A stretch of 40,920 bases of DNA from the IMG/VR virus record IMGVR_UViG_3300027798_000093, positions 1 to 40,920 of that record; one strand, written 5' to 3'. A program made the translations under genes and the position numbers. Shown piece by piece: positions 1,214 to 5,813 of this stretch. Under the pieces are notes generated by a model. That model was not told where the DNA came from and did no database searches. It worked only from the letters and a program-made list of their open reading frames with translations. How positions within the stretch are numbered: position 1 is the first letter of the stretch; the number at the start of each line of letters is the position of its first letter. Source of the DNA: a virus (Duplodnaviria > Caudoviricetes).

Positions 1214-1576
1214 ATGGCTACAGATAAAACATTTAAGGTATTTGGCGTTTCTAAACTCGATGGTGAGTACAAGGTTCGCTTTGCAAATGATATCATGCGT
1301 ATCAAAGTACTTGCTAAACACGGTCACGAAGACATTCGATTGGCTGAAGTTGACACGGCTTTGACCAAGTACGAAGGTATTCTAGCTATCCAGTCTATGG
1401 AAGACTTCCAAGACGCGGCAGCTCAGTCAGCTATTGCTGAGTACCTTGAGGAAAAGGCACCTAAGGCTAAGGCAACTAAGCCAGTGGCTAAGGCAGCTCC
1501 TGCTCCTAAAGCCAAAGCAACTAAGGCTCCTGCAAAGGCAGTCAAGGTTACAGAAGACGAAGACGCACCGTTCTAA
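1214..1576 (+). CDS. hypothetical protein with Lys/Ala/Pro-rich histone-H1-like tail
   Basis: KAPKAKATKPVAKAAPAPKAKATKAPAKAVK followed by an acidic tip EDEDAPF; GAGG RBS; own promoter. Confidence 0.75.
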   Translation: MATDKTFKVFGVSKLDGEYKVRFANDIMRIKVLAKHGHEDIRLAEVDTALTKYEGILAIQSMEDFQDAAAQSAIAEYLEEKAPKAKATKPVAKAAPAPKAKATKAPAKAVKVTEDEDAPF

Positions 1577-1952: not shown

Positions 1953-2029
1953 GGGCCTCTAGCTCATTCGGTTAGAGCAGAGGACTCATAATCCTTTGGT
2001 GCGGAGTTCGAATCTCCGGGGGCCCACCA
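1953..2029 (+). tRNA. tRNA with CAT anticodon, most likely tRNA-Ile2 (lysidine)
   Basis: Acceptor GGGCCTC/GGGGCCC, discriminator A, encoded CCA; anticodon arm GAGGA-CTCATAA-TCCTT; T arm CGGAG-TTCGAAT-CTCCG; paired 1:72 and C4-G69/C5-G68 favour Ile2 over fMet/Met. Confidence 0.92.
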
Positions 2030-2071: not shown

Positions 2072-2100
2072 TTGACAGTTCGGGCTTGAATTGCTATAAT
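2072..2100 (+). promoter_or_regulatory. sigma70-type early promoter
   Basis: TTGACA(2072-2077)-N17-TATAAT(2095-2100). Confidence 0.9.
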
Positions 2101-2126
2101 ACACACATAGACAATAAGGAGCAAAG

Positions 2127-2414
2127 ATGGACAAGAGCGTACACATTCCCGGAGCACCAGAGTACATAGCAACTCCAATCACTCCCCAAGCCATGGTGGC
2201 ACACGGCCTTATGATTTTGAACAGACAGCACGGCGGATGCTATGATAGAGGCTCAGCAGACAGCTACTACCGTCGTCCCCCAAGCCCACACAAGTACCCT
2301 ATGGGCACTTACAATGGTGACCCTGTAACAGAGCTCACAGCTGACGAAGTAGCGGCCTATATGAAGGGCTACATGGACAACGAACAGAGCGGCGACTTCA
2401 AAGACTGGGGTTGA
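2127..2414 (+). CDS. hypothetical protein
   Basis: 95 aa; AAGGAGC RBS; own promoter; stop TGA lies inside the next -35 box. Confidence 0.8.
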   Translation: MDKSVHIPGAPEYIATPITPQAMVAHGLMILNRQHGGCYDRGSADSYYRRPPSPHKYPMGTYNGDPVTELTADEVAAYMKGYMDNEQSGDFKDWG

Positions 2415-2439
2415 CACTCTGGGTCCAAACTGCTATAAT
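2411..2439 (+). promoter_or_regulatory. sigma70-type early promoter
   Basis: TTGACA(2411-2416)-N17-TATAAT(2434-2439). Confidence 0.9.
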
Positions 2440-2472
2440 TAGGACATGAACAGCAACACACAGGAGCACAAG

Positions 2473-2655
2473 ATGAAAGTTACCGTTGACATCCCAAAGA
2501 GCATCATAGACAACATCAAGCGATCCGCCGAGTCCAACGGTGTGACCCCCACTAAGGCCCAAATCCAAGAGTTCCTGGAATGGCATGTAGAGGGCGTCTA
2601 TGCCGACTTCCACACAGAAGATCTGGACGATATTACAGCTGATAATTTCGGTTGA
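2473..2655 (+). CDS. hypothetical protein
   Basis: Start moved to ATG 2473 after AGGAGC at 2462-2467; stop TGA inside the next -35 box. Confidence 0.75.
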   Translation: MKVTVDIPKSIIDNIKRSAESNGVTPTKAQIQEFLEWHVEGVYADFHTEDLDDITADNFG

Positions 2656-2680
2656 CACTTCGAGCTCGATCTAGTATAAT
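2652..2680 (+). promoter_or_regulatory. sigma70-type early promoter
   Basis: TTGACA(2652-2657)-N17-TATAAT(2675-2680). Confidence 0.9.
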
Positions 2681-2713
2681 ACACACATACACAGCAAATA
2701 AGGAGCGAAACTT

Positions 2714-3058
2714 ATGCAACTACTAATCACAACACAAACCCAAGAGAACTACGGTGCCCATGATTGGGACGGCGAAGGTGAGTGCCCACAGTACTGGAAG
2801 TTCAAAGGCGGTCAGGATTACAAATATGACCTGGCAGGCTTCCGCTTCGAAAGCGAGTTCTGCGACAAGAACCTGCGCATGATCGTGGACGGCCTGAGAG
2901 ATCAGATTGAAGAGAACAACGACTACTATCGTAACAACATCATCGGCTATCAAGTAGTAGAAGACAACTACCTCACTGAGTTCGAGCAGAGCCAGTTGGA
3001 TTACGAAGGCCGTATCACATATCCCGCAACCCGTTTAGAAATGAAGGAGCCTGTATAA
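2714..3058 (+). CDS. hypothetical phage protein
   Basis: 114 aa with ENYGAHDWDG..CPQYWKFKGG; RBS AGGAGCGAA. Confidence 0.85.
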   Translation: MQLLITTQTQENYGAHDWDGEGECPQYWKFKGGQDYKYDLAGFRFESEFCDKNLRMIVDGLRDQIEENNDYYRNNIIGYQVVEDNYLTEFEQSQLDYEGRITYPATRLEMKEPV

Positions 3059-3255
3059 TGTACAACATCGTTAAGAACCCTATTCCACGCTCAGGACTTT
3101 GGGCAACTCCAACCCTAGAGCAGATCCAAACACAGATCGAAGGCTTCCCGCCCGAGATCCGTGCCCAGATGCATCACGTGATGATGCTGACCCTCAATGC
3201 CTGCAACAAGCTGGTAGAGGACGAGATCCTATCTAAAGAGATCTTTGCACAATGA
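3058..3255 (+). CDS. hypothetical protein
   Basis: 65 aa; TAATG overlap; AAGGAGC RBS. Confidence 0.75.
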   Translation: MYNIVKNPIPRSGLWATPTLEQIQTQIEGFPPEIRAQMHHVMMLTLNACNKLVEDEILSKEIFAQ

Positions 3256-3353
3256 ACGACATCCTGTATGCGTTCTATATGACCATGGAGCTGTGGATTT
3301 TTTGCGGAATCCTGTTGACAGCTTTGGTGATTGAAGCTATAATTACTACTTAA
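3252..3353 (+). CDS. small single-pass membrane peptide (33 aa, not in ORF track)
   Basis: Hand translation MNDILYAFYMTMELWIFCGILLTALVIEAIITT; ATGA overlap with the upstream stop. Confidence 0.45.
   Translation: MNDILYAFYMTMELWIFCGILLTALVIEAIITT
3315..3343 (+). promoter_or_regulatory. sigma70-type early promoter
   Basis: TTGACA(3315-3320)-N17-TATAAT(3338-3343). Confidence 0.9.
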
Positions 3354-3375
3354 ACAGCACACAGGAGCGAACCTA

Positions 3376-3576
3376 ATGCGTACACAAACAAACAAGCTAC
3401 TAGAGATGATGGACGAAGGTGTCATCAGCGCCCAATCTATTGCAGAGATGGCTCTGTCTTACATGTCAGAAGATGACGTGGCAGACATGATGCGAGCCAA
3501 CGATATCCTGGAAGAAGAGGATGATGGACAACCCGACGAAGCTCAGGAATGGGCGGACTTTGACGCAGACTGCTAA
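3376..3576 (+). CDS. hypothetical acidic protein
   Basis: 66 aa ending DGQPDEAQEWADFDADC; RBS AGGAGCGAA. Confidence 0.8.
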   Translation: MRTQTNKLLEMMDEGVISAQSIAEMALSYMSEDDVADMMRANDILEEEDDGQPDEAQEWADFDADC

Positions 3577-3582
3577 TAGCAG

Positions 3583-3611
3583 TTGACAGGCCAACTAAAA
3601 GATAGTATAAT
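3583..3611 (+). promoter_or_regulatory. sigma70-type early promoter
   Basis: TTGACA(3583-3588)-N17-TATAAT(3606-3611). Confidence 0.9.
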
Positions 3612-3643
3612 TAAGACTTAAACAGCAACAAGGAGCGACCCAA

Positions 3644-4027
3644 ATGGCTAAATTAAATTATGACAAGTTCGCAAGCTTCGACCTTAACGAAGCCTGTGAC
3701 CACTTTGACTGTACCGATCAACGGGCCTGGAAGAAGATCCGCCCTTTCATCGTAGCAGACGGTGAAGAGTACGCAGAGGTCATGCTTAAAGAGTTTGACT
3801 ACGATGAAGTCCATGACGGCGAGTACCAGACATTTGAAGCAGGCGTTAAATATGCACTAACTAAGATGAACTTGGCATTTGAGAAGGCAGGAGTGGACCT
3901 CCAGATCTGCGAGGTAGACTTGGTAGAGAGCATGGGCTTTATGTTAGTACGTTGCGATGACGAGCCCGAGGACTTTGTAAAACGGGTCTTGAAGAAGCCC
4001 GTCATGATGGTGGACAGCTGGGTCTAA
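3644..4027 (+). CDS. hypothetical protein
   Basis: 127 aa; RBS AGGAGCGA; own promoter. Confidence 0.8.
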   Translation: MAKLNYDKFASFDLNEACDHFDCTDQRAWKKIRPFIVADGEEYAEVMLKEFDYDEVHDGEYQTFEAGVKYALTKMNLAFEKAGVDLQICEVDLVESMGFMLVRCDDEPEDFVKRVLKKPVMMVDSWV

Positions 4028-4087
4028 AGAGTTGCCAAAGAGTCAGCCTACCACTAGACCCTGCAACACGCCTGGGCACTTCGTAGG

Positions 4088-4116
4088 TTGACACTGAGGC
4101 ACTTTGACAGTATAAT
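4088..4116 (+). promoter_or_regulatory. sigma70-type early promoter
   Basis: TTGACA(4088-4093)-N17-TATAAT(4111-4116). Confidence 0.9.
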
Positions 4117-4150
4117 TAACACTTACACAAACACAATGGAGCGAAACATT

Positions 4151-4474
4151 ATGGTAACAGCAGAACAGATCCAAAAGGGCCTTCCACTAGCAATCCAAGC
4201 TAGCCAGGACATGTACACCAAAATTGGCGGCGACAGGTTTGCCTGTGGCTTTGCTTGGGTAGACGTGTTCGTGGATCGTACCAACAGCAAACAAGCCAAA
4301 GAGCTGATCGCCGCTGGCTTTAAGAAAGACTACAAGCCCAAGTGCTTGAGCTTTTGGAACCCAGGTGGACTTGGTGTGCAGAACGTAGACATCAAAGAAG
4401 CGGGTGCAGATGCCCTGGCCACATACCTCCGTGCATTGGGTTTGAATGCATACAGTGGTAGCAGATTGGATTAA
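4151..4474 (+). CDS. hypothetical phage protein
   Basis: CGFAWV and C-terminal SRLD motifs; start moved to ATG 4151 after GGAGCGAA at 4138-4145. Confidence 0.8.
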   Translation: MVTAEQIQKGLPLAIQASQDMYTKIGGDRFACGFAWVDVFVDRTNSKQAKELIAAGFKKDYKPKCLSFWNPGGLGVQNVDIKEAGADALATYLRALGLNAYSGSRLD

Positions 4475-4491
4475 TTGCATACCAAAGGGCG

Positions 4492-4520
4492 TTGACTAAC
4501 AGCGCCCTTGAGTGTACAAT
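4492..4520 (+). promoter_or_regulatory. sigma70-type promoter of the AAA ATPase, overlapped by an inverted repeat
   Basis: TTGACT(4492-4497)-N17-TACAAT(4515-4520); AAGGGCG...CGCCCTT flanks the -35 box. Confidence 0.8.
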
Positions 4521-4550
4521 TACAACTTCAACAGCGTAAAAGGAGCGATT

Positions 4551-5426
4551 ATGGCGAAGGTTATTACTAGTAAGATGCTTATGGCATTGCAGGATGCAGA
4601 CACATTCAAGGTAGTTGAGACTGTTAAAGATCTCACTAATGAAACAGACGAAGAGATCATGGAACGTATTGGCGCACGTTTCGACATTCTAGAAGACATG
4701 ACCCGTGCGGTTAAGAAGGGTGATGTTAAGAGCATGATCGTTACTGGCCCTCCAGGCGTTGGTAAGAGCTACGGCGTAGAGAAGGTACTGAGCAAGCATG
4801 ACGTGTTTGCTACAGTAGCACAGGACGAGAAGCTGAAGAAGTACGAAGTAGTCAAGGGCGCAATGAGTGCGATTGGCTTGTACTCAAAGCTGTATGAGTT
4901 CTCAGACAAGAAGTGCATACTGGTGTTCGATGACTGTGACTCAGTACTGCAAGACGAGCTGAGCCTTAACATTCTCAAAGCCGCATTGGATTCGGGCAAG
5001 AAGCGCATGATCCATTGGAACACAGACAGCAGACTGCTACGCTCAGAAGGTGTGCCCAACAGCTTTGAATTCAAAGGCGGCGCGATCTTCATCACCAACA
5101 TCAAGTTCGAGAATGTGCGCTCAAAGAAGCTGAAGGATCACTTGGAAGCACTTGAGTCACGCTGTCACTACTTGGACTTGACCATTGACACTGAGCGTGA
5201 GAAGCTCCTGCGCATCCGTCAGGTAGTACGTGACACAGGCATGCTGGACGAGTACGAGATCGAAGACTGGGCCAAGCAAGAGGTAGTGGACTTCATCAGC
5301 ACCAATGCCAAACGTATGCGTGAGCTCAGCTTGCGTATGGTGCTGAAGGTAGCAGACATCCGAGTCAGCATGCCACACAACTGGAAGGCAGTAGTAGAGG
5401 TTACATGTATGCGCAACGCTCGCTAA
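4551..5426 (+). CDS. AAA+ family P-loop ATPase
   Basis: Walker A GPPGVGKS, Walker B ILVFDD, sensor IFITN, arginine finger ALESRC; start moved to ATG 4551 after AGGAGCGA. Confidence 0.88.
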   Translation: MAKVITSKMLMALQDADTFKVVETVKDLTNETDEEIMERIGARFDILEDMTRAVKKGDVKSMIVTGPPGVGKSYGVEKVLSKHDVFATVAQDEKLKKYEVVKGAMSAIGLYSKLYEFSDKKCILVFDDCDSVLQDELSLNILKAALDSGKKRMIHWNTDSRLLRSEGVPNSFEFKGGAIFITNIKFENVRSKKLKDHLEALESRCHYLDLTIDTEREKLLRIRQVVRDTGMLDEYEIEDWAKQEVVDFISTNAKRMRELSLRMVLKVADIRVSMPHNWKAVVEVTCMRNAR

Positions 5427-5435
5427 GGGCTAGCG

Positions 5436-5604
5436 TGTACAGCTACAGCATAGTGCCGCAGAGTGCTAGCTGTAGTGCAGTAGGACAGCCCAACGATTCG
5501 CTCCCGGCAAGCTGTCCATGTAGGAAGAACTAACGCCAACAAGGCAATGGTTCTTGATCCCCACCCGTAAATCCGATTCGCTCCCGGTAGGTGGGGATTT
5601 TTTT
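5436..5604 (+). ncRNA. candidate four-hairpin regulatory RNA with two anti-RBS loops
   Basis: Stems TACAGCTA/TAGCTGTA, GGACAGC/GCTGTCC, AAGAAC/GTTCTT, ATCCCCACC/GGTGGGGAT+T-run; CGATTCGCTCCCGG at 5494-5507 and 5574-5587. Confidence 0.65.
5557..5604 (+). terminator. intrinsic terminator closing the early region
   Basis: 9-bp stem ATCCCCACC(5557-5565)/GGTGGGGAT(5590-5598) followed by a T-run to 5604. Confidence 0.8.
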
Positions 5605-5727
5605 GGCTCGACATTCAGAGGCGGGTCGGCATAGATAATATCTTTTTGGGTGGGGTGGCCGGACATGCATTTATAAACTTTGTTGCTTTTACGCAACAGC
5701 GCATGCCTATTTTTTCATGGCATATAG

Positions 5728-5813
5728 GTGCAAAATCACCAGGGTGAATCTGTAAGTACTTCACCATAATTTTTTACGAGCAAGAAAAATAAGAGCAAAA
5801 GACCCATTCAGGG
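5728..5813 (+). repeat. imperfect direct repeat, copy 1 (copy 2 at 6405-6491)
   Basis: Shared blocks GTGYAAAATCACCAG, TAAGTACT, AATTTTTTACG, GACCCATT in the same order. Confidence 0.7.

What the first reader, a model, noticed from the sequence alone, without database searches (positions are those of the whole stretch)
5436..5604. Candidate phage sRNA whose loops are antisense to the shared early-gene RBS
Seen: the non-coding DNA after the last early gene folds into four hairpins and ends in a + strand terminator. The 14-mer CGATTCGCTCCCGG occurs twice, 80 bp apart (5494-5507, 5574-5587), both times in a loop region, the second inside the terminator hairpin. Its core TTCGCTCC is the reverse complement of GGAGCGAA, found at the RBS of genes 2714, 3376 and 4151 (8 nt at 2702, 3364, 4138). 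Genes 3644 and 4551 match 7 nt (GGAGCGA at 3632, 4542), and genes 2127, 2473 and 3058 match only GGAGC. Known: CU-rich loop seeds that occlude Shine-Dalgarno sites are an established sRNA mechanism (e.g. RNAIII). Inference: a 3'UTR-derived RNA silences a whole tagged class of phage early mRNAs, including its own ATPase mRNA, and acts as a timer. An activating or adaptor role cannot be excluded. I do not recognise this as a described family.
Basis: partly seen in the sequence, partly recalled or inferred. Interest (0 to 1): 0.92.

Follow-up and report, generated by a model that had tools for sequence, protein, structure and literature searches.

The report
Phage RNA reads private start barcodes
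A group of uncultured giant phages marks the ribosome-landing sites of its early genes and a few late membrane genes with a short private tag and carries, behind an early gene, conserved hairpins whose predicted open loops are the tag's exact complement; tag and loop switch together between two phage groups, so one RNA likely turns down translation of the whole tagged gene set.

Summary
The DNA behind the early NrdC.10-like ATPase (about 5415-5604) folds into hairpins, two of which show a 9-nt loop, AUUCGCUCC, complementary to the GGAGCGA(A) tag at five early ribosome-binding sites. 59 of 64 ATPase loci carry the loop, and the stems co-vary. A sister clade has loop UGCCCUC and tag GAGGGCA: 196/318 early starts carry tag A and none tag B in loop-A loci, against 155/261 tag B and none tag A in loop-B loci (repeated). 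This is one independent swap. Four of seven metatranscriptomes hold a stand-alone 165-169-nt contig over the element, a weak hint without strand. Best reading (0.62): a 3'UTR-derived antisense RNA that blocks tagged ribosome sites in trans. Repression and timing are untested. No Rfam or literature match was found. This scan noted the same system earlier on other DNA.

The parts
5415..5604 (+). Predicted 3'UTR-derived structured RNA (five hairpins, two seed loops, intrinsic terminator)
   Evidence: Fold; exact stand-alone RNA contigs 5421-5585, 5414-5582, 5418-5584, 5416-5580 in 4 of 7 runs laid
5416..5436 (+). Hairpin 0 over the ATPase stop codon; likely 5' boundary
   Evidence: Fold; contig starts at 5414-5421
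5442..5476 (+). Hairpin 1, long stem without seed
   Evidence: an optional CAGC-loop-GCUG module sits at this place in 9 of 50 type-A and 3 of 36 type-B loci
5483..5517 (+). Hairpin 2 with seed loop 1 (5496-5504, AUUCGCUCC)
   Evidence: 86 both-side changes over 10 pairs in 35 aligned copies, 0 of 500 shuffles as high, slid controls 16-34
5525..5555 (+). Hairpin 3, variable spacer
5556..5604 (+). Terminator hairpin with seed loop 2 (5576-5584) and U-tract
   Evidence: U-tract behind the last loop in 49 of 50 type-A loci; one RNA contig runs into adapter after 5597
4551..5426 (+). AAA ATPase, homologue of T4 NrdC.10 (phrog_1250); host gene of the 3'UTR, itself tagged
4542..4548 (+). RBS tag GGAGCGA of the ATPase gene
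   Evidence: -13.2 kcal/mol with the loop
4138..4145 (+). RBS tag GGAGCGAA of gene 4151
3632..3638 (+). RBS tag GGAGCGA of gene 3644
3364..3371 (+). RBS tag GGAGCGAA of gene 3376
2702..2709 (+). RBS tag GGAGCGAA of gene 2714
2118..2122 (+). Partial tag GGAGC of gene 2127 (also 2463-2467 for gene 2473 and 3046-3050 for gene 3058)
   Evidence: -9.2 to -9.6 kcal/mol; weak
2072..4520 (+). Seven sigma70-type promoters (2072, 2411, 2652, 3315, 3583, 4088, 4492; six 12/12) with no strong terminator before 5604, so their transcripts are predicted to share this 3' end
   Evidence: one weak 5-bp hit at 4233, inside an ORF

Best explanation
The element is a conserved multi-hairpin sequence whose predicted loops are complementary to a private tag in the phage's ribosome-binding sites, and it likely acts as a 3'UTR-derived antisense RNA that pairs in trans with tagged mRNAs and blocks ribosome loading. 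Shown: loop-tag complementarity, conservation, stem covariation, and the joint swap of loop and tag between clades, in early genes and in csgF. Inferred: (1) transcripts from the seven early promoters all end at the 5604 terminator, and decay leaves a stable fragment of about 190 nt, so the RNA would build up in step with total early transcription; (2) its 7-9 bp pairing with early leaders covers the Shine-Dalgarno core and would damp early translation, its own ATPase included, as negative feedback; (3) the longer 12-15 bp sites at late envelope genes (csgF operon, a 91-93 aa membrane protein) would hold these off until late mRNA exceeds the RNA, and late mRNA may then soak it up. Steps 2 and 3 give a translational timer and threshold; both are untested.
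For: 59 of 64 ATPase loci carry the seed within 330 nt of the stop, 55 with two copies; 93 of 98 copies read GATTCGCTCCC; mean unpaired probability 0.87. Stem covariation. Swap: loop-A loci 196/318 promoter-proximal starts with GGAGCG and 0 with GAGGGC; loop-B loci 155/261 with GAGGGC and 0 with GGAGCG; further loci 62/108 vs 0 and 245/333 vs 3 (the 3 come from one type-A locus misfiled by coding-sequence hits). csgF sites: CCGGGAGCGAA in 3 of 3 type-A records, GGAGGGCA in 2 of 2 type-B records that hold the gene. The same loop sits before terminators of two other early genes (31 and 9 of 120 hits), so it is tied to early 3' ends and not to one gene. Tagged genes without a loop in their own transcript exist (three early genes behind the last loop terminator in G003; all csgF genes), which points to action in trans. 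Early leaders fold weakly (-1.7 to -4.5 kcal/mol), so there is little structure to open, and for the five fully tagged genes the loop duplex (-13 to -14) beats the canonical anti-SD duplex (-5.6 to -9.9). Stand-alone RNA contigs in 4 of 7 runs, with no cover beyond 5614 in the four runs. Outgroup loci L604, L609, L615, L616 show neither loop nor full tag in the stretch held.
Against: No experiment shows repression. The swap is one evolutionary event (B is one clade), so the large counts are not independent. Strand is not measured: a plain G-U count in folded structures favoured the minus strand (280 vs 181 in A, 170 vs 120 in B); a strand-symmetric helix test favoured plus in B (18 G-U vs 2 A-C) but was neutral in A (7 vs 7). 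RNA support is contigs only; X1, X4 and X5 showed no such contig among the pieces listed. Only a minority of promoter-proximal early genes genome-wide carry the full tag (6/33 in G006, 8/43 in G003). The long late complement is not conserved: CCGGGAGCGA in 12 of 59 distinct csgF leaders and 2 of 59 membrane-protein leaders. L174 keeps two loops but has the 6-nt tag at 1 of 10 starts. L704 and L705 have a B-like tag with no loop in 1.5 kb. 7-8 bp pairing may need a chaperone, and no phage Hfq was found in 5 records.
Confidence: 0.62

Rival explanations
1. The tag is a binding site for a phage protein (on RNA or double-stranded DNA), and the hairpin copies are decoys on a minus-strand RNA, CsrB-like, or operators; the A/B swap reflects a change in that protein's specificity.
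For: Repeated identical loops on variable stems are also the architecture of protein-titrating RNAs (recalled). Plain G-U counts favoured the minus strand. Some late leaders hold the whole reverse-complement mini-hairpin, and some type-B leaders carry two tags in tandem.
Against: U-tracts follow the last loop on the plus strand in 49/50 and 27/36 loci; the symmetric test favours plus in clade B; no minus-strand promoter-like site lies within 590 nt downstream of the element; a DNA site would not need co-varying stems.
Confidence: 0.12
2. The RNA pairs with the tag but the main outcome is nuclease recruitment and decay of tagged mRNA, an RNA-guided counterpart of T4 RegB, or its main targets are host mRNAs.
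For: T4 RegB cuts GGAG in early Shine-Dalgarno sites to end early expression (PMC3014915, passages). The seed includes CUCC or CCUC, which would also pair with host SD sites (inference).
Against: The seed extension beyond the SD core tracks the phage's own tag. The RegB consensus GGAGRAYARAA does not match GGAGCGAA. The host is unknown, so host targets were not tested.
Confidence: 0.1
3. Pairing is in cis: each early transcript folds its 3'UTR loops back onto its own tagged 5' end, as in S. aureus icaR, with no separate small RNA.
For: All seven early promoters in the window are predicted to share this 3' end; icaR precedent (PMC3868564, abstract).
Against: Tagged genes lie outside any loop-bearing transcript; stand-alone contigs over the element in four studies.
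Confidence: 0.08
4. The RNA is an adaptor or activator: its loop serves as a substitute anti-SD that helps ribosomes load on tagged phage mRNAs.
For: The loop resembles the 16S tail at both ends (GAU...CUCC; the 16S tail is recalled); tags sit on promoter-proximal genes with strong promoters.
Against: No second conserved element that could bind the ribosome was seen; the window's tail sheath, tail tube and terminase genes lack the tag; pairing over the SD core blocks initiation in the known cases (c4 passage; icaR abstract).
Confidence: 0.07

Closest known systems
Cuckoo / RSs0680 (CcsR) sRNAs of Alphaproteobacteria (PMC4615179, abstract and section 6 read)
   Same: 2-4 adjacent hairpins with variable stems, the same anti-SD-like motif in each loop, co-transcribed with an upstream gene, terminator behind.
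   Different: Loop is CCUCCUCCC, close to the generic anti-SD; bacterial. Here the loop extends into a phage-private tag that differs between clades and is matched by the phage's own genes.
c4 antisense RNA of phages P1/P7 (PMC12197685, one passage read)
   Same: Phage RNA pairing in trans through loop sequences around a ribosome-binding site; specificity differs between related phages.
   Different: One target (ant mRNA), temperate immunity region; no Rfam match here. This RNA has about 8-15 predicted targets per genome in T4-like phages.
Start-associated sequences (SAS) of cluster K mycobacteriophages (PMC3203893, passages read)
   Same: Conserved asymmetric extension of the SD a few nt before start codons, with positions that cannot pair with 16S rRNA; four of those genomes carry one copy in the opposite orientation away from any start; the authors left open whether an RNA or a protein binds.
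   Different: Different sequence and phage group; SAS is limited to non-structural genes; no cognate RNA was proposed there.
T4 RegB and RegA (PMC3014915, passages read)
   Same: Post-transcriptional shut-off of many early mRNAs at their initiation regions, with self-control.
   Different: Proteins, not an RNA; different consensus; neither family was detected in five related records (inconclusive searches).
icaR 5'-3' UTR pairing, S. aureus (PMC3868564, abstract read)
   Same: C-rich 3'UTR motif pairing with an SD region.
   Different: One mRNA, in cis; here many targets, several without a loop in cis.

Membership tests
Cuckoo sRNA | 2-4 adjacent hairpins with variable stems and a repeated loop motif | tested here: met
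   (1-5 seed copies per locus)
Cuckoo sRNA | Loop motif CCUCCUCCC | tested here: not met
   Loops are AUUCGCUCC or (U)GCCCUC
Cuckoo sRNA | Match to an Rfam model | tested here: not met
   No hit at gathering score or at E up to 10; five type-B loci gave tRNAs only
Cuckoo sRNA | Hfq binding, stress induction | not testable with these tools
   No phage Hfq in 5 records; host unknown
c4 antisense RNA | Loop sequences complementary to the target RBS region | tested here: met
   (predicted pairing)
c4 antisense RNA | Rfam match and antirepressor target in a temperate immunity region | tested here: not met
   context is a T4-like early array
SAS of cluster K mycobacteriophages | Repeated asymmetric SD extension a few nt before ATG, with rare opposite-orientation copies away from starts | tested here: met
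SAS of cluster K mycobacteriophages | 13-bp SAS consensus; limited to non-structural genes | tested here: not met
   Tags differ from the consensus given; late csgF and holin genes are tagged
T4 RegB/RegA control | regB or regA gene in the phage | tested here: inconclusive
   0 of 5 records, but no control genome rang
T4 RegB/RegA control | RegB site consensus GGAGRAYARAA | tested here: not met
   Tag is GGAGCGA(A)
SD-occluding trans-acting sRNA (functional class) | Discrete RNA that lowers translation of paired mRNAs | not testable with these tools
   Only contig-level RNA evidence

The most novel reading that the evidence does not exclude
The phage runs a private translation channel: the RNA loop acts as a substitute, phage-specific anti-Shine-Dalgarno that selects barcoded phage mRNAs for ribosomes, a natural orthogonal-translation adaptor. 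A less extreme reading, at about 0.3, is a bistable early-to-late switch in which late envelope mRNAs with 12-15 nt sites are first locked by the RNA and then sponge it.
Probability: 0.07. Interest if true: 0.97.

Novelty: new variant of a known kind. Interest (0 to 1): 0.8.

Why it matters
T4 ends early translation with proteins (RegB, RegA). This would be an RNA doing a similar job across a phage genome through a barcode written into ribosome-binding sites, with binding strength graded from 5 to 15 nt. It suggests an answer to the question left open in 2011 for mycobacteriophage start-associated sequences (does an RNA or a protein read them?) and makes it directly testable. The two natural, mutually exclusive loop/tag pairs supply the compensatory-mutation control ready-made and could serve as orthogonal translation switches.

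Tried and rejected
Known RNA family: no Rfam hit. Cultured relatives: no meaningful blastn hit among 50,697 phage records (4 records, E 2-7); the nearest cultured ATPase (PA5oct/Paride group, 47%) has neither seed nor tag in the 20.8 kb read. Host with a variant 16S tail matching the loop: 0 of 120 pattern hits lay in 16S context, but only 12 of 64 parts of the collection were scanned. Third loop/tag type: none found with three further queries. Consensus fold of 40 of 51 terminator copies recovered only the 3-bp mini-stem because outer stems are out of register, so it was not used as covariation evidence. Plain G-U counting is biased by the A/C-rich loops of the plus strand and was followed by a symmetric test; both results are reported. 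Holin as a swapped target: tagged in three type-A records (one as GGAGCGG), but in G009 the 11-nt complement precedes an inner ATG 61 codons into the open frame, so it is ambiguous. RegA/RegB searches had no positive control. No function for ORF 1214 or a solved relative of the ATPase was found. Literature searches with no describing paper. The alignment files of Fremin et al. 2023 (PMC10690425) could not be searched and may hold this motif as an unnamed candidate.

Full report
Setting. The window is a 40.9 kb piece of a T4-like phage (tail sheath, terminase, recA-like, helicase read from the ORFs); nothing more of this genome is held. Complete relatives are 353-383 kb (G003, G006, G009). The early array holds seven sigma70-type promoters between a tRNA terminator at 2061 and the terminator at 5604. 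Its last gene is an AAA ATPase of phrog_1250, a homologue of T4 NrdC.10; the nearest cultured match is the PA5oct/Paride group at 47%.

Observation. The fold is more stable than shuffles (z -2.86). The exposed part is a 9-nt loop, AUUCGCUCC, closed by a short stem. A fifth hairpin covers the ATPase stop codon.

Conservation. Of 63 ATPase loci plus the window, 55 have two seed copies within 330 nt of the stop, 4 have one and 5 none; in 51 distinct regions 93 of 98 copies read GATTCGCTCCC, 69 are fully unpaired in the best fold and the mean unpaired probability is 0.87. I aligned 35 of 47 first-hairpin copies, leaving out 12 (one near-duplicate and 11 that overlap the stop codon or differ in layout): 73% of cells pair, with 86 both-side changes against 36 in shuffles (0 of 500 as high) and 16-34 in slid controls. 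These controls do not fully remove relatedness. A scan of viral contigs for the 14-mer returned 120 loci: 18 lie at the 3' end of the ATPase, 31 behind a winged-helix gene, 9 behind homologues of window ORF 1214, 9 are reverse-orientation copies directly before the ATG of a gene with a TAAATA box, and 53 are other or chance.

Covariation of loop and tag. L182 showed a different loop (UGUGCCCUCG) and a different early tag (GAGGGCA); its relatives were fetched. In 96 distinct loci of 115, the 50 loop-A loci have 318 promoter-proximal starts, 196 with GGAGCG and none with GAGGGC; the 36 loop-B loci have 261 starts, 155 with GAGGGC and none with GGAGCG; 10 loci without a nearby loop have 41 starts with 5 and 5, which come from two loci whose loops lie further downstream. 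A second set, 91 distinct of 116 loci, gave 62/108 vs 0 for A and 245/333 vs 3 for B, the 3 from one misfiled type-A locus; 11 loci were unresolved, 9 with A tags and 2 with a B-like tag and no loop within 1.5 kb. The two hexamers differ at four of six positions. On a quick ATPase tree the main A group (49 rows, support 98) and the B group (37 rows, support 98) are separate, with a second small A branch. This is one independent swap. No third type was found.

Targets. In G006 the two best duplexes among 472 called genes are a late csgF gene (-25.0 kcal/mol) and a late 91-aa membrane-protein gene (phrog_18771; -23.7); in G003 the best of 480 is csgF (-29.7), and the membrane-protein gene, missed by my gene caller, has a 12-nt complement; tagged early genes give -13 to -17. 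The 7-nt tag is at 6/33 early, 2/58 late and 4/381 other starts in G006, and 8/43, 3/63, 3/374 in G003. In a survey not selected by motif, 26 of 59 distinct csgF leaders have GGAGCGA and 12 the longer form; for the membrane protein 10 and 2 of 59 (80 loci each, five without a start found; clade not assigned). Of 34 records with a known loop type, 5 hold csgF: the three type-A records have CCGGGAGCGAA and the two type-B records GGAGGGCA. In type-B G009, GAGGGCA precedes 7 early, 1 late and 3 other starts and GGAGCGA only 1; type-A G006 and G003 have GAGGGCA at 1 and 0 starts.

Is it an RNA, and on which strand? Twenty RNA runs hold part of 3500-5800; seven were laid. Four, from four studies, have an exact stand-alone contig over the element (5421-5585, 5414-5582, 5418-5584, 5416-5580); in X8 it is the only contig on 5000-6200, and one X2 contig runs into adapter after 5597. 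X1, X4 and X5 showed none among the pieces listed. Contigs give no strand, end or level, so this is a weak hint. For strand, a U-tract follows the last loop on the plus strand in 49/50 A and 27/36 B loci; plain G-U counts favoured minus; a symmetric helix test gave 18 G-U to 2 A-C in B and 7 to 7 in A.

Mechanism. Pairing covers the SD core, early leaders are nearly unstructured, and the loop duplex is 3-8 kcal/mol stronger than the canonical anti-SD duplex at the five fully tagged genes; among 256 loop variants that keep the CUCC core the real loop ranks second on the eight early leaders. Tagged genes without a loop in cis exist. I therefore read the element as a trans-acting, SD-occluding antisense RNA (0.62). 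That it counts early transcription, feeds back on early genes and sets a threshold for late envelope genes is inference. Rivals are a protein site with decoy hairpins (0.12), RNA-guided decay or host targets (0.10), cis pairing (0.08) and an adaptor (0.07).

Known systems. It works like cuckoo sRNAs in architecture (PMC4615179, abstract and section 6) and like c4 RNA in logic (PMC12197685, passage) but fails membership of both. The tag resembles the start-associated sequences of cluster K mycobacteriophages, whose reader was left open (PMC3203893, passages). T4 does early shut-off with RegB and RegA (PMC3014915, passages). The lambda PreS preprint (10.1101/2024.10.31.621285, passages) describes a phage sRNA with mainly host targets. 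Passages of PMC5737381 and PMC7318152 describe no such motif; icaR was read as abstract. RNAIII and CsrB are recalled, not read. Seven searches found no paper on this element (listings only); the Fremin 2023 alignments could not be searched.

Earlier notes of this scan. A search by sequence gave nothing, but searches by words and by place showed the same system on other DNA, including the GAGGGCA type, and similar loop/tag pairs in unrelated phages. They are unchecked AI notes and not support. I had found the swap before reading them; they supplied the SAS, cuckoo, c4 and icaR comparisons. The short texts shown do not mention the late targets or the RNA contigs.

Verdict. Real, conserved, not found in Rfam or in the papers searched, with good comparative support for pairing and no direct test of effect. 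New variant of a known kind; interest 0.8.

Noticed in passing
   Followed up: no
window 1214-1576 and 1577-1640: Homologues of this ORF end in a seed loop plus terminator in 9 of 120 hits; the window's copy has only CCCTCGCTC at about 1587 and a hairpin without a U-tract, perhaps a decayed copy.
   Followed up: partly
L552 (G011) early leaders: This type-B-clade phage has largely dropped the tag (1 of 7 starts) and instead carries leader hairpins and an ACTCC...GGAG pair that could hide the SD in cis.
   Followed up: no
L219:305-9814 (G003): A csgF, csgG-like, curlin-like, FecR-like, adenylate-cyclase-like gene run faces a convergent run of small membrane-protein genes; the first gene of each follows a TAAATA box and has a 12-15 nt complement to the loop. 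Only CsgF was confirmed by Pfam in this record; the other labels are read from the sequence.
   Followed up: partly
L639 (G009 holin, PF11351): Two possible starts 61 codons apart, each with a tag-like site; a dual-start arrangement is possible.
   Followed up: no
3'UTRs of L121-L158 and L520, L531, L554: An optional CAGC-loop-GCUG hairpin is shared by 9 of 50 type-A and 3 of 36 type-B elements, a hint that both types come from one scaffold.
   Followed up: partly
window 1953-2026: A tRNA gene followed by a terminator (2034-2061) bounds the early array on the left.
   Followed up: no
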